Shown: one piece after another, positions 1,530 to 8,997 of the stretch | How positions within the stretch are numbered: position 1 is the stretch's first letter | Layout: each line of letters starts with the position of its first letter | NCBI GenBank assembly: GCA_919903025.1 | Contig: CAKKSE010000040.1 | Coordinates: forward strand, 1-52,607 | DNA length: 52,607 nt | DNA from: Nitrospiria bacterium | Lineage (GTDB): Bacteria > Nitrospirota > RBG-16-64-22 | Direction: 5' to 3' | Translations under genes and position numbers: made by a program | The notes under the pieces: generated by a model | The model's input: only the letters and a program-made list of their open reading frames with translations | Told to the model about the DNA's origin: nothing | Database searches by the model: none

Positions 1530-2039
1530 TCAATTCCCTTGTTCCTCCGGTGCGGACTGTCGCGCCGCCCTACGCCAGATCCCCCAGAGGACGAGGCCCA
1601 GGAGAATGGCAAGCGACCCCTGCAGAGAGAGAAAGGCCGCGATCTTCATATACGCAAACCCCGGATGCACGAACCGCACGAGCCATCCCGCTCCCTCGTT
1701 CAACAGGGCCGAGAGGAACGGCACGGCGACCCCCACGGCCTTCCATCCGTTGCGGAGCGGAACAAACAGGAGCAGATGCGTAAGGAGAAGAAGGACCATC
1801 CCCATGATCGGCAGGTGGAAGTGCGTGACCTCCAGCATCCCCTGATACGTCCGGGGCGCCGTGTACTGCGCTTCGGAGCCGAGGTAGTACCCCACGACGG
1901 CTTCGTAGGAAAGCCCCATCTTCAGGAAGAAGAGGAGGAAGTTCGTCACCCACAGTCCCCCGAGAAACACAAAGGCCCAGGAGAGCGTGAGGCGCATCAG
2001 AGGAGCACCCTTCATCTCCCCGTTTGCCAGGTATTTCAT
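1530..2039 (-). CDS. Conserved ~4-TM membrane protein with His residues (THFHL, LTHL); third gene of porin/FMN operon
   Basis: 169 aa with hydrophobic segments; ATGA overlap with upstream FMN-binding gene. Confidence 0.8.
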   Translation of the reverse strand: MKYLANGEMKGAPLMRLTLSWAFVFLGGLWVTNFLLFFLKMGLSYEAVVGYYLGSEAQYTAPRTYQGMLEVTHFHLPIMGMVLLLLTHLLLFVPLRNGWKAVGVAVPFLSALLNEGAGWLVRFVHPGFAYMKIAAFLSLQGSLAILLGLVLWGIWRRAARQSAPEEQGN

Positions 2040-2575
2040 CGTCGATCCTCCGCAAGCTTCACCCGGTAGATCGCCAGCAGGCGGCGCACGGCATCGGAAA
2101 TGGCCCTTGACGAGAGCGTGGCCCCGCTGATCCCGTGGATTTCCCGCCCAACCCGAAGGTCCGGTGTCAGCCTACACCCTGCAAACTGCCCCAGCCACCG
2201 GGAAGAGGGCAGGTACTCGAGCGGCTCATGGAAGGCCAAGACATGGACGGCCCGCACCCTCCCCTCCGGGGTCAGGACAATGAGGACTGTCTCCGGCATC
2301 GTCCGCACGACGTGTGTTTCAATGAAGGCGTATCCCAGAACGCCCCCTGCTTTCCTGCCGACATAGACCGTCACGAGCCGGGATTCCAGGCGGCTCTGAG
2401 CCAGATCTTCGATCCGTCGAATTTCCCCCGGTGCCAGGAAGATGGTCCGGGCTTCCACGGACTCCGCCTCAGGAAAGGCGAGGCGGAGAGCCGCTTCCTT
2501 GCTGTGGAACACCGCAGCCCCCGCCTCCATCACACTACATACCAGCAGTACTAGTGCCAAAATAGCGCTTCGCAT
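2036..2575 (-). CDS. Exported FMN-binding domain protein (RnfG/NqrC-like flavinylation substrate)
   Basis: N-terminal signal peptide; C-terminal ISGATLSS flavinylation motif; V-x-V-L-A-F-H-E-P core. Confidence 0.85.
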   Translation of the reverse strand: MRSAILALVLLVCSVMEAGAAVFHSKEAALRLAFPEAESVEARTIFLAPGEIRRIEDLAQSRLESRLVTVYVGRKAGGVLGYAFIETHVVRTMPETVLIVLTPEGRVRAVHVLAFHEPLEYLPSSRWLGQFAGCRLTPDLRVGREIHGISGATLSSRAISDAVRRLLAIYRVKLAEDRR

Positions 2576-2595: not shown

Positions 2596-3876
2596 TTAGA
2601 ACATGTAACTCATTCCCACGTTCCACTGGTTGATTCCGGTCCCCGCCGCGTTCCGCCGGTCCTGGTAGTCGAACTTGACGGCCACGTTCGGGATCGGCTT
2701 GTACGTGAGGCCCATCGTCCAGACCTGGCGATCGTTGGCCGGATCGGCCTGATATCCCGCCGGCACGGCAGCCTGCGTGTTCAATTGCTCGTAGCGGACG
2801 AAGGGGGAGAGGGCGTGCGTCGTCCTCGGCCGAAAGAGGGGCAGCACGTCGTAGGCGCCTTGCAGATACCACCCTTTCATCCGCGAGCCTACTGAGGCCT
2901 TCCCCGTGACCCCTTTCAGGAGGTTCACCCGGTCGGCCTCCCCCACGCATCCCTCGGCATACAGCGCCCGGAGGTCGATCCCCCGCCATCGCCATTGGGC
3001 ATGGAGGTCCCAGAGCGTGACGGGCGCCTCAAGCGTCTGCCCGCCGACCTGATCCCCCTGCCCCGAGTTCCCGGCGAAGAACGAGGCGCCCAACGTGAGT
3101 CCGGGCACTCCTTTGTAGTCCAGGCGGCCGGTGAACGCCAGGTCCTCGGCCAGGCTCCGCGCCCCGCTCTGACGCCCGCCACGCACCCCCTCGGCCGCCG
3201 AGAACCCCGAGGCTTTCAACCCGGCTGTGACGTAGAAGCGGTAGTCCAGACCCGGAAGCGGCTCGCCGAACACCCCGACGCCGTTCTCCCGCCACGTCGT
3301 GGGGAGGATGAACCGCTCCACGTCCGGACGGAGGACGCCGTGGAACGTGACCGGCTCATGCTGCTCGTTCACCCATCCCATGGGGATGAGGACCATCCCC
3401 ATGCGGAGATTGGCGGCCGGGTGCAGGAGGAAATCGAGGTGGGCGAACTCCACCGACGCCTCCCCGCCCTTCCCCGTGCTCGCATGCTCGAACTCCAGCT
3501 CCGAGTTGAAGATCACCCGGTCGGAGAACTTGTATCCTAGGTAGATGACGCTCCGGAGGAAGTCGGCTTGGTCCCGCTTCCCCGAGGGGGTGCCGTCGTC
3601 CTTCGTCCCCTTGAAATTCTCGTACGTCAGCTCGCCGTAGCCGGCCAGCGAAACGCCCCGCGTGATCCCGTAGACCCTGGAGGCCGCCGGCCCCAGGCCG
3701 AAGTAGGGCTTCAATTCTTCCTTCTCCGGCAGCACGAGTTGCGTCTTCAGCTTCTCGATCTCCTCGGCCAGGATGCCGATCCTCCGCTCGACCTCCCGTG
3801 AAGCCGTCTCTTCGGCCGTTGCGGGACTCCCCGCGAGCAGGATGCCCAACGCCAACACCATCCATCGTGTTCCCAT
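2596..3876 (-). CDS. Outer-membrane beta-barrel porin with N-terminal coiled segment (OprO/P-like)
   Basis: Signal peptide MGTRWMVLALG after GAGGAGGA RBS; amphipathic strands, ELEFEH motif, C-terminal Phe (GMSYMF). Confidence 0.82.
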   Translation of the reverse strand: MGTRWMVLALGILLAGSPATAEETASREVERRIGILAEEIEKLKTQLVLPEKEELKPYFGLGPAASRVYGITRGVSLAGYGELTYENFKGTKDDGTPSGKRDQADFLRSVIYLGYKFSDRVIFNSELEFEHASTGKGGEASVEFAHLDFLLHPAANLRMGMVLIPMGWVNEQHEPVTFHGVLRPDVERFILPTTWRENGVGVFGEPLPGLDYRFYVTAGLKASGFSAAEGVRGGRQSGARSLAEDLAFTGRLDYKGVPGLTLGASFFAGNSGQGDQVGGQTLEAPVTLWDLHAQWRWRGIDLRALYAEGCVGEADRVNLLKGVTGKASVGSRMKGWYLQGAYDVLPLFRPRTTHALSPFVRYEQLNTQAAVPAGYQADPANDRQVWTMGLTYKPIPNVAVKFDYQDRRNAAGTGINQWNVGMSYMF

Positions 3877-3896
3877 GACGTGTCCTCCTCTGGTTG

Positions 3897-3916
3897 CCTG
3901 CCTGCCAACAGGCAGG
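3897..3916. repeat. Short palindromic element CCTGCCTG-CCAA-CAGGCAGG
   Basis: Perfect 8-bp inverted repeat between terminator and porin RBS. Confidence 0.6.
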
Positions 3917-3921
3917 GATGT

Positions 3922-3975
3922 GAAACAAAAAAAGCCCACAGGGGTCCGGGATCAACCGGACCGCGCCGTGGGCTC
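3922..3975 (-). terminator. Intrinsic terminator/attenuator in the porin-operon leader
   Basis: Minus strand AGCCCACGG..GGTCCGG-TTGATC-CCGGACC..CTGTGGGCT followed by a T7 run then GTTT, ~45 nt before porin start. Confidence 0.85.
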
Positions 3976-4032
3976 TGGGCTCAAACATCCTCGGGCCTCT
4001 TACATCTGATTACTGACTCGCGTCTACCATCA

Positions 4033-4085
4033 AGGCTAAGGTTGAGGTTCAGAAAATCCTAGACCTCGACCTCAGCCTCAACCTC
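4033..4085. repeat. Hexamer tandem/inverted repeat (AGGYTN)n...(RRCCTC)n
   Basis: aggcta aggttg aggttc ... gacctc gacctc agcctc aacctc; overlaps stop of zinc-ribbon ORF. Confidence 0.65.
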
Positions 4086-4251
4086 GTGCCTTCTGACTCC
4101 CGACTTCTGTTCCCAGCGGGATCCGCCACACCCGCTTGCACCGGCGGCACTTCAGCTCGACGGCGCCGTCCACCAGCCGGGCGATGAGCGAACCGCAGGG
4201 GCAGCGGAACTCGTCGCATTTTGTATGATTATGACATTCATTTTCAATCAT
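4078..4251 (-). CDS. Small Com-like (Mu Com family) zinc-ribbon protein; start uncertain
   Basis: EFRCPCGSLIARL...VELKCRRCKR: CxC + CxxC knuckle pattern typical of Com-family proteins. The in-frame ATG lies within the predicted promoter. Confidence 0.65.
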   Translation of the reverse strand: MIENECHNHTKCDEFRCPCGSLIARLVDGAVELKCRRCKRVWRIPLGTEVGSQKARG

Positions 4252-4256
4252 GTCAA
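4228..4256 (-). promoter_or_regulatory. sigma70 promoter TTGACA-N17-CATAAT with Fur-type box in spacer (4232-4246)
   Basis: Minus strand ttgaca tgattgaaaatgaatgt cataat; TGAAAAT-G-AATGTCA resembles the box upstream of fur. Confidence 0.75.
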
Positions 4257-4265
4257 GCAAAAATC

Positions 4266-4421
4266 TCACCCCCTCCGCTCGAAGACCACCGTATGGAGCA
4301 CGTCGGCCCAGACCCGGCTGCCGACCTCCAGCACCGTCGTGGAAGACTGCGTGCTGTGGACGACCTGGCCGGAGGGGAGCGCGACAGCGTAGAGGTTCTC
4401 CGACCCGTTCTCGGCGGCCAC
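4266..4421 (-). pseudogene. Remnant of ABC ATPase C-terminal TOBE domain (FbpC/PotA-like)
   Basis: Own translation: VAAENGSENLYAVALPSGQVVHSTQSSTTVLEVGSRVWADVLHTVVFERRG*. An in-frame TAG lies just upstream and there is no ATPase domain. Confidence 0.5.
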
Positions 4422-4474
4422 CCGCTAGCGGGAGCCGTCTATCAAACCGCGCCCAGGCACGTGCCTTGCGCGCC

Positions 4475-5167
4475 TCACCCTCCCACCCGCTTTACGAATA
4501 TCTCCTTCGCGATCTCCTCGTCCACGGCGAGGGTCGTCTCGCCGATCTCGAGGACGATCGAAGGCTGTTTCTGGACGAGCCGGACCGTGCTCCCTGGCAC
4601 GAGCCCCATCGCGCCCAGCTTCGGCAGGCGAGACGTGAACCCCGGCGTCATGAAGGCGACGCGCCCCGCCTCTCCCGGCGAGAGGTCCGACAGGCGGGAG
4701 ACGAGAGGCTTCAGGTCGCGCCGGTACTTGGCGCAACAGTCCCCTCGCGGGATCGGCTTGCCGTCCGGCGTCGTCGTGGGATGGCCGAGGAAGGCGCAGA
4801 CGGAGTCGGTCACCTGGGGCGAGAGGATGTGCTCGAACTCGCACGCGTGCCGAGTCGCCTCCTGGTCCCCCAGGTCGAAGACGTCCACGAGAAGGCGGCG
4901 GGAGAGCCTGAACCGCCGCACGATCCCCCGGGCCCATTCGTCGCCCGTCTGGGTCAGGGCGATCTCCTCTCCGGCGATCTTCAAGTGTCCTTCGCGGACA
5001 AGATGGTCGAGGAGCGAGCGCGGATCCGGCTCCAGCGTGACCGCCAGCGCGTCGGCGAGACGCGTCTTTCCCTCTTCCCGGAGAGTCCAGATCTGCTCCA
5101 GAATCTCCTCCAGCTTCTGCTTCTTGACCTGTTCTTCTTCGCCGTGCGGGGGGCAAAGCTCAACCAT
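4475..5167 (-). CDS. DtxR/MntR-family metal-dependent regulator with C-terminal FeoA/SH3 domain
   Basis: EEILEQIW, ACEFEHIL, FLGHPTTTPDGKPIP, then FeoA-like LSDL..G..LGAMGLVPG; AAGGAGG RBS. Confidence 0.9.
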   Translation of the reverse strand: MVELCPPHGEEEQVKKQKLEEILEQIWTLREEGKTRLADALAVTLEPDPRSLLDHLVREGHLKIAGEEIALTQTGDEWARGIVRRFRLSRRLLVDVFDLGDQEATRHACEFEHILSPQVTDSVCAFLGHPTTTPDGKPIPRGDCCAKYRRDLKPLVSRLSDLSPGEAGRVAFMTPGFTSRLPKLGAMGLVPGSTVRLVQKQPSIVLEIGETTLAVDEEIAKEIFVKRVGG

Positions 5168-5193
5168 GACGTTCCTCCTTCAAACAAGGCTTC

Positions 5194-5282
5194 ACCGCAG
5201 AGAACGCGGAGCACGCCGAGAAAATCGTTCTTTGATCTCAAGTGTAGCCCTTTTTCTCTGCGCCCTCCGCGTTCTCCGCGGT
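5194..5282. repeat. 9-mer-periodic inverted repeat element
   Basis: accgcagagaacgcggagcacgccgaga ... tctctgcgccctccgcgttctccgcggt between feoB and the DtxR gene. Confidence 0.7.
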
Positions 5283-5297
5283 CCAGGATGTTTCGTA

Positions 5298-7271
5298 CTA
5301 CAAGACCGGAACTAGGTTCAGAATCCAGTGCACTATTCCTCCAACAACGAACGCGAAGGGAAAGATGAACGCCGCCATTCCCAGGGCGGGCCTCAGGCCC
5401 CTCTCCTTGATCATCATGAAGAAATTCGCGATGCACGGAACGAACAGCGTGATCGTGACGAGCGACACGACGACCTGGTGCGCGTCCATCTGACCGGCCT
5501 TCTGGAGGGCGAACAAGCCCGCCGCGCCGTAGTCCCGCCGGAGGAACCCGACGAGAAACGCCTCGGTCGCGCGGGCCGGAAGCCCCAGGAAACCCTCCAC
5601 CAAGGGGGAAGTCACGCCGGTGAGCCACGCGAGGACGCTCATCCGGTCGAGGACGAACAGGACCAGCGTCCCCAGGATGAAGAGGGGAACGGCCTCCCGA
5701 AGGTACCACTCCACCCGTCCGGCGGTCTTGACGAGGATGTTGGAGAGGAGGGGACGGCGGATCGGGGGGATCTCCAGCATGAACTCCGTGTCGTCCCCTT
5801 TGAAGATGCGCGCGGAGAGAAAACCGACGAGAAAGATCACGCCGACGAGCGTCCCCACCCAGACCGCGATGCCAGCCCAGGGAAGCGTGGCGGCCATGCC
5901 CGTTACGACGCCAAGCTGGGCCGAGCAGGGAACGCCGAGGGCGAGGAGAAGCGTCACGATCATCCGCTCCTTCCGCGTCTCCAGGATCCGCGTCGTCATC
6001 GTCGCCATCGTGTCGCACCCGAGGCCGAGGATCATTGGAAGGACCGCTTTCCCGTTGAGCCCCATCGCCTTGAAGATCTTGTTGAGCATGACGGCCAGGC
6101 GGGGGAGGTATCCGGTGTCTTCGAGAACGGCGAACGCGATGAAGAACGTCGTCGTGATTGGAAGAACGATTGCGATGGCGTAGGTTAACGCCATCGTGAC
6201 GATCCCGTATTCCCCCACGAACAGATCCTGGAGGGGCTTCCAGGGAACGAGAAGAGTAATGAGGCGCGTCGCCCACGGGTTCAGGAACTGGCCGAAGACC
6301 GTTTCCTCGAAAAAATCGACCAGGACGCCCGCCCCGAGCTGGCCGACGAAATAGTAGATCAGAACAAGGACAAGGAGAAGGATCGGCACGCCCCAGACCG
6401 GGTGCATGGACCACTCCCCGAAGGCCCGGACCCACTGCGAACCGGCCGGGGGGAGCCGCGTCATCACGGATTGGAGGAGCGTATCCACGGTCCGCAGGCG
6501 CTGTTCGCCGATCACGTAGGCGAGCGGGAAGCCGTACCTGCGCTGGACCTCTTCCCGGACCTCTTCGAGGCGTTGGACCGCCGCCGCGTCAAGGCGGGCG
6601 TTCAGCCACTGTTTGAGGGAGGCGTCCCCGGCGAGGACCATCAGGGCGATCGACTCACGGGAAATGGGGGCGTCCGGGAGAAGCGCGGCGATCCGATCTA
6701 TCCCGTCCCGGATGGGCGCGTCGTAAACCGCCCGGAACGACGACGGCCGGGCGCCGCCGACCGCTTCCCTGAGCGCGTCGATCCCCTGCCGCTGAACGGC
6801 GACCGTCGTCACGACCGGAATTCCCAGTCTCCCGGCGAGGAGTCCCGCGTCCACGAAGACTCCCCGCGAACGGGCCTCGTCGTCCATGTTGAGGTCGAGA
6901 GCGACGGGCAGTCCCATCTCGATGAGTTGGATCGTCAGGAGGAGGCTGCGGCGGATGTTCTTCGCGTCCGCGACCTGGATGACGGCCCTCGGCGTCTCGG
7001 CTAGCAGGATGTCGCGCGTCACGAGCTCGTCCTCGGACGTCGGAACGAGCGAGTTGACGCCCGGCGTGTCGATGACGACGGCCCGGCGTCTGCCGAAGAC
7101 GGCGTTGCCCGTGCTCACTTCGACCGTCGTCCCGGGGTAGTTGGAGACGGTCACGTACTTCCCGGTCAGGAGACCGAAGATCGAACTTTTGCCGACGTTC
7201 GGATTGCCGAGGAGAATGACGCGGTCAACTCCCTCGTGGACAGCGGACGCGGAGACACCATGCTCGTGCAA
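5298..7271 (-). CDS. feoB: Ferrous iron transport protein B
   Basis: GNPNVGKS, VSNYPGTTV, DTPG, NMDD G-domain; LEDTGYLPR, GLGC, VPC gate motifs. Confidence 0.97.
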   Translation of the reverse strand: MHEHGVSASAVHEGVDRVILLGNPNVGKSSIFGLLTGKYVTVSNYPGTTVEVSTGNAVFGRRRAVVIDTPGVNSLVPTSEDELVTRDILLAETPRAVIQVADAKNIRRSLLLTIQLIEMGLPVALDLNMDDEARSRGVFVDAGLLAGRLGIPVVTTVAVQRQGIDALREAVGGARPSSFRAVYDAPIRDGIDRIAALLPDAPISRESIALMVLAGDASLKQWLNARLDAAAVQRLEEVREEVQRRYGFPLAYVIGEQRLRTVDTLLQSVMTRLPPAGSQWVRAFGEWSMHPVWGVPILLLVLVLIYYFVGQLGAGVLVDFFEETVFGQFLNPWATRLITLLVPWKPLQDLFVGEYGIVTMALTYAIAIVLPITTTFFIAFAVLEDTGYLPRLAVMLNKIFKAMGLNGKAVLPMILGLGCDTMATMTTRILETRKERMIVTLLLALGVPCSAQLGVVTGMAATLPWAGIAVWVGTLVGVIFLVGFLSARIFKGDDTEFMLEIPPIRRPLLSNILVKTAGRVEWYLREAVPLFILGTLVLFVLDRMSVLAWLTGVTSPLVEGFLGLPARATEAFLVGFLRRDYGAAGLFALQKAGQMDAHQVVVSLVTITLFVPCIANFFMMIKERGLRPALGMAAFIFPFAFVVGGIVHWILNLVPVL

Positions 7272-7324: not shown

Positions 7325-7432
7325 TTGAAGAACCCCGCCTTGAAAGGCGGGAATTCTTCGACCTCCAAGGTGCTTTTCGATATTTGCATTCGTTCGCCGT
7401 AATCCCCGCCCCAAGGGGCGGGGATTACGGCG
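7325..7432 (-). mobile_element. Candidate IS200/IS605-derived non-autonomous element (two CCCGCC hairpins, ...TTCAA end)
   Basis: Perfect 18-bp IR at 7395-7432, plus GAATTCCCGCCTTTCAAGGCGGGGTTCTTCAA on the minus strand, resembling IS605 right ends. Confidence 0.45.
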
Positions 7433-7443
7433 CACTGCGCGGT

Positions 7444-8268
7444 TCAGTTGTGCGCGGATGATTTTCCGGCCCTGTGCACCAGGAGACTCGCCACCGTGAG
7501 CGCCGCGGCGTAGGCCAGAACTTCCGTCAATGCCGGGTTGGCCCGGTAGCCCGTGAGCGTCCGGACGGCCGTCCCGGCTAGGCTCTTGTGGTCGAGAAGC
7601 CATGAAGTGTTCCAGAGCGGCTTGACGATCGCCGGGACAAGACCGAGTTCGACCGCCTCGTGAACGGCGCTTGAGGCAAGCCCCGCAATCAACATAACGA
7701 GCAGGACCGTCGAGACCCGGAAAAACCAAGCGACAGGCAGGCGGGAAATCCCGGCGAAGAAGAGCCACGCAAGCCCCGCCGCAAGAACGATCCCGCCGGC
7801 GCCCGCCGCGAGCATGGACGCGTGGCTCACTGTCTCCGTCTGTTGAAGAACGATGCTCCAGAGGAACAAAACCGTCTCGGCCCCCTCGCGGAGTACTCCC
7901 AGGAAGGCGATCGCCGCCACGCCGCCCCAGGCCCCCCGCGTCAGGACCTCCTCCGCCCGCCGCTCGATCTCTCCCCGAAGAACGCGCTTGTTTCTCTGCA
8001 TCCAGACGAGCATCTGCGTGAGCAGGACCGCCGCCACGGAGAAGACGCCCAGTTCCATCCACTTCTCGGCCGGCCCTTCCCATGCGAATCCGTACGCCTT
8101 CACGATGCCGCCCAACGCCAGGCTCGCGATCACCCCCAAGCCCGCCCCCGCCCAGACGCCGGCGACGGCCCTCGGCTCCCCCAGCCTCCTGACCGCCGTC
8201 AGGAGTATCCCAATAATGATCGCCGCCTCCAGCGACTCACGCCATGTCACGAGCATTACGCTTGCCAT
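7444..8268 (-). CDS. FTR1/EfeU-family iron permease
   Basis: Two RExxE motifs (RESLE, REGAE), ~7 TMs, C-terminal LTGY. Confidence 0.93.
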   Translation of the reverse strand: MASVMLVTWRESLEAAIIIGILLTAVRRLGEPRAVAGVWAGAGLGVIASLALGGIVKAYGFAWEGPAEKWMELGVFSVAAVLLTQMLVWMQRNKRVLRGEIERRAEEVLTRGAWGGVAAIAFLGVLREGAETVLFLWSIVLQQTETVSHASMLAAGAGGIVLAAGLAWLFFAGISRLPVAWFFRVSTVLLVMLIAGLASSAVHEAVELGLVPAIVKPLWNTSWLLDHKSLAGTAVRTLTGYRANPALTEVLAYAAALTVASLLVHRAGKSSAHN

Positions 8269-8857: not shown

Positions 8858-8872
8858 TGAAAACGATTTTCA
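8858..8872. promoter_or_regulatory. Fur-type operator TGAAAAC-G-ATTTTCA (autoregulation)
   Basis: Near-perfect 7-1-7 palindrome in an AT-rich patch just downstream of the -10. Confidence 0.8.
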
Positions 8873-8878
8873 TGTTCT

Positions 8879-8907
8879 TTTATACGCCTCCCCTGGTCCC
8901 GTGTCAA
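8879..8907 (-). promoter_or_regulatory. sigma70 promoter TTGACA-N17-TATAAA for fur-FTR1-feoB-dtxR
   Basis: Consensus hexamers with 17-bp spacing. Confidence 0.75.
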
Positions 8908-8997
8908 GAGCAATGTCGGGACTTGCGGCAGTCCGGACAAGACCCGGAAACGCCGCTCTGGGAATCGATCTTCCTACCCCGGCAGAGGCCGCTCCCA

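What the first reader, a model, noticed from the sequence alone, without database searches (positions are those of the whole stretch)
3922..4256. Com-like zinc-ribbon leader protein with GAG(G)CCC repeats overlapping a terminator: candidate metal-sensing attenuation system
Seen on the minus strand, in order: promoter with Fur-type box; small CxC/CxxC ORF; AGAGGCCC (4000-3993) and GAGCCC-A-GAGCCC (3982-3970), the last copy being the 5' base of a strong terminator; T-tract; porin RBS. The first two motifs flank a small weak hairpin. Known: phage Mu Com is a zinc-finger RNA-binding protein that binds short repeats in its own mRNA and remodels a stem to activate mom. Inference: this chromosomal Com-like protein binds the repeats and blocks terminator formation, adding a post-initiation layer of control that may depend on metal loading. 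I know of no described system of this type for iron operons.
Basis: partly seen in the sequence, partly recalled or inferred. Interest (0 to 1): 0.88.

Follow-up and report, generated by a model that had tools for sequence, protein, structure and literature searches.

The report
Com-like zinc-ribbon protein with RNA attenuator
A tiny zinc-ribbon protein gene is followed by a conserved RNA hairpin that competes with a terminator in front of an iron-regulated outer-membrane operon, and the pair recurs across several bacterial phyla, which points to an undescribed protein-dependent switch for iron-uptake genes.

Summary
In detail: every listed element is at the stated coordinates on the minus strand.

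- **The ORF is real.** The small CxC...CxxC ORF (4269-4078) belongs to an unnamed family with 564 relatives in species-representative genomes (Myxococcota, Nitrospirota, Binatia and others).
- **Relation to Mu Com.** It misses Pfam Zn_ribbon_Com, but a profile-profile comparison links it to phage Mu Com (96.6%).
- **The "repeats" are a conserved RNA element.** It is 26-30 nt long and lies 11-136 nt after the stop in 49 of 88 loci. It folds as two 3-bp helices around a conserved internal loop, with 99.1% of cells paired and three covarying pairs.
- **It competes with an inhibitory hairpin.** Its 3' strand (GAGCCC) is the 5' arm of an intrinsic terminator in 14 of 59 instances, the window included, or of a hairpin ending at the next gene's start codon.
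- **Element and protein gene co-occur.** Counts were 7 of 9 against 0 of 52 genomes, and 33 of 41 against 1 of 60.

Most likely the protein binds the hairpin and prevents termination, adding a second layer to Fur control. Binding and any metal dependence are untested. I rate this a new variant of a known kind and of high interest.

The parts
4078..4269 (-). Small Cys4 zinc-ribbon ORF (63 aa from GTG 4269, 57 aa from ATG 4251). Conserved core: RCxCGsLiArlvdGavELKCRRCKR....P.
   Evidence: One search lists the ORF. Homologs appear (564 relatives). Alignment A1 has 12 invariant columns. hhalign against the Mu Com alignment gives 96.6%. No Pfam or NCBIfam family matches.
4228..4256 (-). Sigma-70-like promoter TTGACA-17-CATAAT with TG, lying inside the first codons of the ORF.
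   Evidence: 11 of 12 positions match; shuffles gave a mean of 0.1 promoter-like sites for the region. No other promoter-like site was found between here and the porin ATG.
4232..4246 (-). Fur-box-like palindrome overlapping the promoter spacer and the -10 hexamer.
   Evidence: 2 mismatches to the 7-1-7 palindrome, whose only other match in the window is upstream of fur (8858-8872). Similar boxes lie upstream of homologous ORFs in other phyla.
4033..4084 (-). Strong stem-loop spanning the ORF stop codon. Function unknown, and not seen as a conserved feature of other loci.
   Evidence: MFE and centroid fold. The Rfam match there is only chance level.
3970..3997 (-). Conserved RNA element (candidate protein-binding antiterminator hairpin). 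Outer helix 3997-3995 with 3973-3971; inner helix 3990-3989 with 3979-3978 (the third inner pair is A.G here); internal loops CCGA and CAGA.
   Evidence: Alignment A3 of 53 distinct instances. Pair counts: 99.1% of cells paired, three covarying pairs, 0 of 500 shuffles as high. Occurs once in the whole genome.
3932..3976 (-). Intrinsic terminator hairpin whose 5' arm starts with the last GAGCCC unit of the element. It therefore excludes the element's outer helix.
   Evidence: RNAfold gives dG -32.5 kcal/mol. The same hairpin appears.
3927..3933 (-). T7 tract of the terminator.
2596..3890 (-). RBS (3890-3884) and porin-like outer-membrane protein gene (ATG 3876), the first gene under the attenuator.
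   Evidence: Pfam gives only weak Porin_4 and IAT_beta hits. The same protein family follows the small ORF in 29 other loci.
1530..2575 (-). FMN_bind-domain protein gene (2575-2036) and a 169-aa membrane protein gene (2039-1530), co-oriented with the porin gene and syntenic with it in other phyla.
4266..4421 (-). 51-aa TOBE-like ORF whose stop overlaps the GTG of the zinc-ribbon ORF (GTGA). It is the last-but-one gene of the fur-FTR1-feoB-dtxR/feoA string, which could supply the mRNA for the zinc-ribbon protein.
   Evidence: TOBE_2, E 0.0066. Conserved at 57% identity in 5 Nitrospira loci.

Best explanation
The locus is a two-part post-initiation switch placed after a Fur-controlled promoter.

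- **Part 1** is a 57-63 aa Cys4 zinc-ribbon protein, remotely related to phage Mu Com.
- **Part 2** is a 26-30 nt RNA element in the leader of the porin / FMN_bind / membrane-protein operon.

The element can fold into a weak hairpin: two 3-bp helices around a conserved 4x4 internal loop that carries CC-N-GAG-like motifs. Its 3' strand (GAGCCC) is also the start of the 5' arm of a much stronger intrinsic terminator. Left alone, the RNA forms the terminator and transcription stops 50 nt before the porin start codon.

The inferred step is that the zinc-ribbon protein binds and holds the element, the terminator cannot form, and RNA polymerase reads into the operon. In other lineages the same element is fused to a hairpin that hides the ribosome-binding site instead. 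There the outcome would be activation of translation, as with Com and mom.

**Shown here:** conservation of the ORF, the element and its pairing; overlap with the inhibitory hairpins; co-occurrence of gene and element.

**Inferred:** that this protein is the binder, and that binding activates.
For: 1. **The ORF is a real, widespread family.** Searches give homologs with a conserved core. One search found 564 of 589 candidate stretches confirmed as relatives.

2. **The element is conserved next to the gene.**
   - In 49 of 88 loci it lies 11-136 nt (median 42) after the stop, on the same strand.
   - At 4 or fewer mismatches, the reverse strands of the loci gave no background hit.

3. **The pairing covaries.**
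   - 315 of 318 cells are paired.
   - Pair 2-28: GC 41, AU 7, GU 5, unpaired 0.
   - Pair 9-21: GC 31, AU 16, GU 5, other 1.
   - Pair 10-20: UA 28, CG 21, UG 2, other 2.
   - 0 of 500 shuffles reach the observed values, and slid controls pair at 7-55%.
   - Among the listed matches, five genomes change only the outer pair (A-T) and one only the inner pair. That G.U is tolerated while A.C is rare (at most 1 cell of the 106 at pairs 2-28 and 9-21) points to RNA of this strand.

4. **Two expression platforms share one register (59 instances).**
   - 14 have a hairpin of -21 to -32 kcal/mol that starts at the last GAGCCC and is followed by at least 5 T in 9 nt. These fall in about 7 lineages with different stem sequences.
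   - In 11 others the 3' partner ends 0-5 nt before the next gene's start codon (read by eye).
   - In 8 of 11 Nitrospira-type loci the element pairs with codons 7-10 of the porin gene, enclosing the RBS.

5. **No promoter-like site** lies between the terminator and the porin ATG.

6. **Gene and element co-occur across genomes.**
   - The pattern is in 7 of 9 genomes with the gene and 0 of 52 without.
   - In a second phylum sample it is in 33 of 41 with the gene and 1 of 60 without. All 33 lie directly downstream of the gene, and the reversed-pattern control gave 2 hits in 101 genomes.

7. **The protein probably acts in trans.** The element also occurs without an intact adjacent ORF:
   - L109 has an internally deleted ORF remnant beside a porin paralog.
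   - L101 lies 33 kb away from the gene.
   - L111 lies on another contig, directly after a Fur box and before an outer-membrane protein gene.

8. **Relation to Com.**
   - hhalign gives 96.6% probability.
   - Nowacka et al. [quoted passage not shown]
   - The internal loop here carries CC-A-G(A/C)G and CC-CN-GAG.
Against: - No binding data exist, and no tool here models protein-RNA contact.
- Pfam Zn_ribbon_Com matches only 1 of 23 members (E 0.076), and NCBIfam gives nothing relevant. The first knuckle is CxC, not CxxC.
- 39 of 88 loci lack the canonical element within 300 nt of the stop, mostly Anaeromyxobacter, Sorangium and Manganitrophus.
- In 4 of 5 such genomes the exact pattern is nowhere in the genome.
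- In G055 the gene is followed by bfd and bacterioferritin genes, with no element.
- In the window the inner helix has an A.G mismatch and the second unit deviates (GGAT), so its hairpin is among the weakest.
- The predicted promoter would start transcripts inside the ORF, so how the protein is expressed here is unresolved.
- The sequences are related, so the shuffle statistics overstate support. I also derived the structure from these same sequences.
- The AlphaFold model is moderate (mean pLDDT 68, core about 88) and the fold search found nothing significant.
Confidence: 0.6

Rival explanations
1. The RNA element is a genuine attenuator, but something else reads it: a different protein, a small RNA, or a ligand or metal ion in the manner of a riboswitch. 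The zinc-ribbon protein is then only a co-regulated iron-stress protein, for instance a rubredoxin-like metal binder or a partner of Fur.
For: Binding by the zinc-ribbon protein is not shown. 39 of 88 loci have the gene without the canonical element. G055 pairs the gene with bfd and bfr genes instead. A fur gene lies directly upstream in 19 loci.
Against: The element is found almost only in genomes that carry the gene: 7 of 9 against 0 of 52, and 33 of 41 against 1 of 60. A hairpin of 26-30 nt with six pairs is small for a ligand pocket. The protein's nearest known relative is an RNA-binding activator whose target motif resembles the loop.
Confidence: 0.18
2. The protein binds the element but represses. 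It holds the 5' units so that the terminator or the RBS hairpin is favoured, or it blocks the ribosome directly, giving negative feedback on the iron-uptake operon.
For: The direction of regulation is not given by the sequence. TRAP and PyrR are precedents for proteins that promote termination (recalled).
Against: The inhibitory hairpins are already very stable without help (-21 to -32 kcal/mol), while the competing element is weak, so the element is what needs a protein. With no promoter after the terminator, a default-off leader plus a repressor would leave the operon with no way to be switched on.
Confidence: 0.08
3. The element is a DNA operator and the protein is a DNA-binding transcription factor, as the NCBI name 'Com family DNA-binding transcriptional regulator' would suggest for Com relatives.
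For: NCBI names for Com homologs. The element consists of short repeated units, as some operators do.
Against: The orientation is fixed relative to the genes, and every credible copy seen lies on the coding strand of the gene downstream of it; all but one (L067) on the small ORF's own strand. G.U is tolerated while A.C is rare, at most 1 cell of the 106 at pairs 2-28 and 9-21, as expected for RNA pairing. The 3' unit is in exact register with terminators and RBS hairpins. The element sits after the gene rather than at a promoter.
Confidence: 0.06
4. Control is in cis through translation. The position of the ribosome finishing the small ORF decides whether the element or the terminator forms, as in leader-peptide attenuation, and the protein product itself is irrelevant.
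For: In some loci the stop codon is only 11-21 nt from the element (L093, L060, L091, L031, L050, L028).
Against: The distance reaches 136 nt. The peptide has a conserved Cys4 fold with 12 invariant columns. The element is kept where the ORF is deleted or absent (L109, L101, L111).
Confidence: 0.05

Closest known systems
Phage Mu Com and the com-mom translational switch (Pfam PF10122, Zn_ribbon_Com)
   Same: - A small Cys4 zinc-finger protein of about 60 aa is encoded directly upstream of the gene it would control.
- Profile-profile similarity covers 37 columns: R-C...C-x-x-L-[LI]...[VI]E[LI]KC-x-RCKR.
- The target is a small hairpin next to, and overlapping, an inhibitory RNA structure.
- The reported Com motif CC(N)2-3GAG, with an accessible GA, resembles the conserved loop nucleotides here (PMC6483171).
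   Different: - It falls below every Pfam and NCBIfam threshold.
- The first knuckle is CxC.
- It is chromosomal, in Nitrospirota, Myxococcota and Binatia, not in a phage.
- The controlled genes are Fur-linked outer-membrane and iron-uptake genes, not a DNA-modification gene.
- In 14 instances, including the window, the inhibitory structure is an intrinsic terminator, so the output would be antitermination rather than translational activation.
RNA-binding antiterminators whose target overlaps a terminator (BglG/SacY/LicT with RAT; also HutP and ANTAR proteins) - recalled from general knowledge
   Same: The logic matches: a weak hairpin whose 3' part is shared with the 5' arm of a strong terminator, stabilised by a protein so that transcription reads through.
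   Different: The protein fold is unrelated: no CAT, PRD or ANTAR domain was found. The protein is a single 33-residue zinc ribbon. The same RNA element is also used with RBS-hiding hairpins.
TRAP and PyrR attenuation proteins - recalled; TRAP's (G/U)AG repeats are named in the abstract of PMC4027176 (search listing)
   Same: A protein reads short GAG-containing units in a leader and so decides between alternative RNA structures.
   Different: Those proteins promote termination when loaded with a metabolite, and they are much larger oligomers. Here the default state is termination.
IRE/IRP control of iron genes in animals, and aconitase-RNA binding in bacteria - recalled; an analogy only
   Same: A small hairpin with a conserved internal loop or bulge sits in the mRNAs of iron-traffic genes and is read by a protein with a Cys-ligated metal site.
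   Different: There is no sequence or fold relation, and no evidence here that metal occupancy changes RNA binding.

Membership tests
Mu Com family (Pfam PF10122 Zn_ribbon_Com) | Scores above the Pfam gathering threshold for PF10122 | tested here: not met
   The window protein has no hit at E <= 0.1. 1 of 23 family members matches, at E 0.076. Bona fide Com homologs all carry PF10122.
Mu Com family (Pfam PF10122 Zn_ribbon_Com) | Detectable homology to Com at profile level | tested here: met
   hhalign of A1 against A2 (15 Com homologs) gives probability 96.6% and a pairwise E of 5.2e-10 over 37 columns. Against Mu Com alone it gives 82.9%. BLASTP aligns only the second knuckle.
Mu Com family (Pfam PF10122 Zn_ribbon_Com) | Four Cys in two CxxC knuckles | tested here: not met
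   The second knuckle is CxxC and is invariant. The first is CxC in all 23 aligned members, which costs a one-residue gap against Com.
Mu Com family (Pfam PF10122 Zn_ribbon_Com) | Binds a hairpin in the mRNA just upstream of an inhibitory structure and activates expression | not testable with these tools
   Only the architecture fits: the element overlaps a terminator or an RBS hairpin.
Mu Com family (Pfam PF10122 Zn_ribbon_Com) | Target carries CC(N)2-3GAG with an accessible GA (PMC6483171) | tested here: inconclusive
   Columns 3-8 read CC-A/C-G-A/C-G, with one spacer base rather than 2-3, and columns 21-27 read CC-CN-GAG. The middle base is C instead of A in many first sites.
Intrinsic (Rho-independent) terminator | A stable GC-rich hairpin immediately followed by a U tract | tested here: met
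   Hairpin of -32.5 kcal/mol followed by T7. The rule-based scanner missed it.
Fur-regulated promoter | An AT-rich 7-1-7 palindrome overlapping the core promoter | tested here: met
   The only other match in the window is upstream of fur. Comparable boxes precede homologous ORFs. Fur binding itself was not tested.
Any Rfam family (riboswitch, leader, sRNA) | A match to an Rfam 15 covariance model | tested here: not met
   The window 3700-4600 at E <= 10 gives only chance-level eukaryotic hits. Fifteen related loci at gathering thresholds give only a tRNA.
BglG/SacY-type antiterminators | A CAT RNA-binding domain with PRD domains | tested here: not met
   No such Pfam domains in the protein. 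Only the RNA logic is shared.

The most novel reading that the evidence does not exclude
The protein could be a metal- or redox-responsive riboregulator, giving a bacterial counterpart of the IRE/IRP circuit. In this reading, occupancy or oxidation of its Cys4 site decides whether it can hold the RNA hairpin. Extra N-terminal Cys/His ligands may contribute: CHxHxxC in the window, CxHCG in Sorangium- and Haliangium-type members. Iron-uptake outer-membrane genes would then be gated twice, by Fur at initiation and by the metal state of a 6-kDa RNA-binding protein at termination or translation.
Probability: 0.15. Interest if true: 0.95.

Novelty: new variant of a known kind. Interest (0 to 1): 0.85.

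Why it matters
- **Reach of the Com mechanism.** Com-type control has been known mainly from the phage Mu com-mom pair and its prophage relatives. This finding would make it a regulator class found in several bacterial phyla, including nitrite oxidisers (Nitrospira) and myxobacteria.
- **Iron regulation.** It would show that Fur-controlled iron-uptake operons carry a second, post-initiation checkpoint.
- **Independent support from the RNA.** One RNA element is joined to two different output modules, terminator and RBS hairpin. This is the signature that identified riboswitch aptamers, so it argues for a trans-acting reader independently of the protein evidence.
- **Annotation.** The protein carries no family name in the sources seen, so these loci are probably under-annotated.
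- **Practical use.** A 57-aa protein with a 30-nt RNA partner would be a very compact, portable switch.
- **Testability.** A gel shift and a termination assay would be enough.

Tried and rejected
- **Rfam.** A search of the window and of 15 related loci found no family.
- **Pfam, NCBIfam and PDB sequence searches for the protein** gave only sub-threshold zinc-ribbon noise. No Com chain matched the Com profile in the PDB sequence search.
- **Structure.** The AlphaFold2 model from A1 has mean pLDDT 68.4, and the core is a three-stranded ribbon. Foldseek against the PDB gave no match at E <= 0.001, so the model is uninformative about function.
- **Public sequencing runs**.
  - The stretch is held by groundwater and aquifer metagenome runs and by one metatranscriptome run (X14).
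  - Contigs of X14 cover 2634-3907, 3992-4261 and 4528-5369 at 100% identity and low depth.
  - Contigs cannot show starts, ends or strand, and DNA may be present in an RNA library. The gaps at 3908-3991 and 4262-4527 are therefore no evidence, and the transcription start remains unknown.
- **Same-genus relatives as a natural control**. The porin was not found with this query in G001, G002 or G003 (92, 89 and 77% complete), so no comparison of leaders was possible.
- **Reading the motif as four independent single-stranded direct repeats.** It is not excluded, but the covariation is better explained by pairing.
- **Literature searches** found no description of such a system. Only search listings were seen for those papers.
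- **Complex prediction** was not used, because no protein-protein claim is made.

Full report
**What is in the window.**

All features below are on the minus strand. The gene order is:
- fur (8830-8375)
- an FTR1 permease (8268-7444)
- feoB (7271-5298)
- a DtxR-FeoA fusion (5167-4475)
- a 51-aa TOBE-like ORF (4421-4266)
- the small CxC...CxxC ORF (4269-4078)
- a 200-nt spacer
- a porin-like outer-membrane protein (ATG 3876 to 2596)
- an FMN_bind protein (2575-2036)
- a 169-aa membrane protein (2039-1530)

- The promoter TTGACA-17-CATAAT (4256-4228) matches 11 of 12 positions and has TG before the -10 hexamer.
- A Fur-box-like palindrome lies at 4246-4232. Its only other match in the 52.6-kb window is upstream of fur.
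- AGAGGCCC is at 4000-3993 and GAGCCC-A-GAGCCC at 3982-3970.
- A hairpin of -32.5 kcal/mol is followed by T7 at 3933-3927.
- The RBS is at 3890-3884.

One correction is needed. The promoter lies inside the ORF, so the predicted transcription start near 4221 is downstream of all in-frame starts (GTG 4269, TTG 4260, ATG 4251). The GTG overlaps the stop of the preceding ORF (GTGA). The protein may therefore be translated from the long fur...feoB mRNA, while the internal promoter would give a leader-only transcript. This remains unresolved.

**The ORF is a real gene family.**

- Nine of 61 related genomes carry clear homologs (E 1e-41 to 1e-7).
- The large protein collection holds 14 word-sharing relatives, all unnamed or 'hypothetical' and without Pfam domains.
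- A scan of one genome per species found 564 confirmed relatives among 589 candidate stretches. The 80 best are from Myxococcota (Anaeromyxobacter, Sorangium, Haliangium), Nitrospirota (Nitrospira, Manganitrophus), Binatia, an Acidobacteriota, a Planctomycetota and a Spirochaetales MAG.
- The core is RCxCGsLiArlvdGavELKCRRCKR....P, with 12 invariant columns.

**Is it Com-like?**

- By curated models it is not. Pfam PF10122 matches 1 of 23 members at E 0.076, and NCBIfam gives nothing relevant.
- By profile-profile comparison it is. Against an alignment of 15 Com homologs, hhalign gives 96.6% probability and a pairwise E of 5.2e-10 over 37 columns, with a one-residue gap at the first knuckle (CxC against CxxC).
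- I therefore treat it as a remote relative, not a member.

**Neighbourhood.**

- tblastn with the window's proteins shows the porin family directly downstream of the small ORF in 29 other loci. In most of these it is followed by the FMN_bind and membrane proteins.
- A fur gene lies directly upstream on the same strand in 19 loci.
- Other genes downstream of the element are MetA-like outer-membrane proteins, a TonB-dependent receptor, cupredoxin-like proteins and ExbB/MotA-type proteins.
- Promoters with Fur-type boxes precede the ORF in Nitrospira and in several Myxococcota and Binatia loci.

**The motif is a conserved RNA element.**

- Downstream of the stop, on the same strand, 49 of 88 loci carry GGCCAG(A/C)GG(Y)C, then 1-6 nt, then GA(R)(Y)CC(M)GAGCCC, or the Nitrospira variant GACCAGAGACC...GAGTCCCGAGTCA. 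The distance from the stop is 11-136 nt, with a median of 42.
- Of 61 instances, 54 were distinct. I dropped one (L002, 849 nt downstream inside another gene, 5 mismatches) and aligned 53.
- The structure '(((....(((.........)))....))).' is kept in 99.1% of cells. Pair 2-28 is GC 41, AU 7, GU 5. Pair 9-21 is GC 31, AU 16, GU 5, other 1. Pair 10-20 is UA 28, CG 21, UG 2, other 2.
- No shuffle out of 500 reaches the observed pairing or covariation score, and slid controls pair at 7-55%.
- Further matches from a second phylum sample show the two helices changing independently among the listed sequences. Five genomes have A-T only at the outer pair and one only at the inner pair. These were read from the listed sequences, not recounted by a tool.
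- Two caveats apply: the sequences are related, and I derived the structure from them.
- The internal loop (C-A-G-M opposite C-N-G-A) is nearly invariant.

**The element is wired to inhibitory hairpins.**

I folded 59 instances from the last unit onward. This is the 61 instances less the dropped one and one locus with too little downstream sequence.
- 14 form a strong hairpin that begins at the last GAGCCC and is followed by a T-rich tail. They are the window, L036, L038, L041, L042, L048, L071, L078, L092 and five second sites in Nitrospira operons.
- The stems beyond GAGCCC differ in sequence between about seven lineages.
- In 11 others the 3' partner of GAGCCC ends 0-5 nt before the next start codon, often ...GGCTCgATG (read by eye).
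- In 8 of 11 Nitrospira-type first sites the element pairs with codons 7-10 of the porin gene, enclosing the RBS (part of that output was cut).
- 9 instances had the last unit unpaired in the minimum-energy fold.
- In the window, G3973, C3972 and C3971 are needed both for the element's outer helix (with 3995-3997) and for the terminator (with 3934-3936). The two structures therefore exclude each other.
- No promoter-like site lies between the terminator and the porin ATG, so porin expression needs read-through.

**Link to the protein.**

- The degenerate pattern occurs once in the window's 2.86-Mb genome.
- Among 61 relatives it occurs in 7, all among the 9 that carry the gene, and in 0 of the 52 that lack it. 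The reversed-pattern control gave 0.
- Among 101 genomes around a myxobacterial locus, 41 carry the gene and 34 carry the pattern. 33 carry both, always directly downstream on the same contig and strand. The one hit in a genome without the gene has an A.C mismatch at pair 2-28. The reversed-pattern control gave 2 hits.
- The element also occurs away from an intact gene:
  - beside an internally deleted ORF remnant and a porin paralog (L109);
  - 33 kb from the gene, before another porin paralog (L101);
  - in Anaeromyxobacter soli on another contig, straight after a Fur box and before an outer-membrane protein gene (L111).
- This fits a trans-acting reader.
- Nowacka et al. [quoted passage not shown] The conserved loop nucleotides here are of that type.

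**Limits.**

- 39 of 88 loci lack the canonical element nearby, and 4 of 5 such genomes lack the exact pattern anywhere. Those proteins may have other targets or another role.
- In G055 the gene precedes bfd and bacterioferritin genes, without the element.
- The window's element is one of the weaker hairpins, with an A.G mismatch at the third inner pair.
- Nothing here tests binding, the direction of regulation or metal dependence.
- Extra Cys/His residues sit in the N-terminal region: CHxHxxC in the window, CxHCG in Sorangium- and Haliangium-type members. A myxobacterial homolog shares the peptide ENE(S/C)HNH with the window and differs mostly at third codon positions (n = 2). Both are hints only.

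**Comparison and verdict.**

- The system works like Com-mom in the loci with RBS hairpins, and like RAT-type antitermination in the loci with terminators.
- It is not a member of either protein family by their defining models.
- I found no description of it.
- Novelty: new variant of a known kind. Interest: 0.85.

Noticed in passing
window 4266-4421 (-): A 51-aa ORF has a weak TOBE_2 match (E 0.0066). It is conserved at about 57% identity in five Nitrospira loci, roughly 3.2 kb upstream of their zinc-ribbon gene. It is an unnamed small protein that travels with this iron locus.
   Followed up: partly
window 4033-4084 (-): A strong stem-loop spans the stop codon of the zinc-ribbon ORF and lies 35 nt upstream of the conserved element. 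It is not obviously conserved in other loci, and its role is unknown (a pause or stability element, perhaps).
   Followed up: no
window 8858-8910 (-): Upstream of fur there is a near-consensus promoter (TTGACA-17-TATAAA) followed directly by a Fur-type palindrome with 1 mismatch. This suggests autoregulation of a long fur-FTR1-feoB string.
   Followed up: partly
window 7390-7440 (-): A GC-rich perfect hairpin without a T tract lies between the FTR1 permease gene and feoB.
   Followed up: no
window 4475-5167 (-): A single polypeptide fuses a DtxR-type iron-dependent repressor to a FeoA domain (Pfam Fe_dep_repr_C plus FeoA), directly after feoB.
   Followed up: no
L109 (G051:C34, about 10.6 kb): A tandem duplicate of the module: Fur-box promoter, a zinc-ribbon ORF with its core deleted, an intact RNA element and a porin paralog. 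It lies 3 kb upstream of the intact module.
   Followed up: partly
L052, L079, L080, L094, L099, about 7470-7580: Nitrospira operons carry a second copy of the element after the membrane-protein gene. It is of the 'standard' sequence type and fused to a terminator, ahead of an HD-GYP-like gene. One operon therefore seems to have two checkpoints.
   Followed up: partly
L030 4022-5509: In one Deltaproteobacteria MAG the zinc-ribbon frame runs without a stop into the porin gene. This may be a real fusion, a read-through, or an assembly error.
   Followed up: no
L045 about 4165-4290; also L054, L064 and other Sorangium loci: Sorangium members have an extra N-terminal CxHCG knuckle and lack the canonical element. 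L045 instead shows a different tandem direct repeat of about 18 nt downstream of the gene.
   Followed up: no
L068 and L082, upstream of 4001: In Manganitrophaceae a terminator-like hairpin with GCCCAA(A)G repeats lies between the Fur-box promoter and the start of the zinc-ribbon gene. The attenuator seems to sit before the gene rather than after it.
   Followed up: no
G001, G002 (same genus as the window): Neither the zinc-ribbon gene, nor the element, nor the porin was found in the two same-genus genomes (92% and 89% complete). The module may be gained and lost as a unit.
   Followed up: partly
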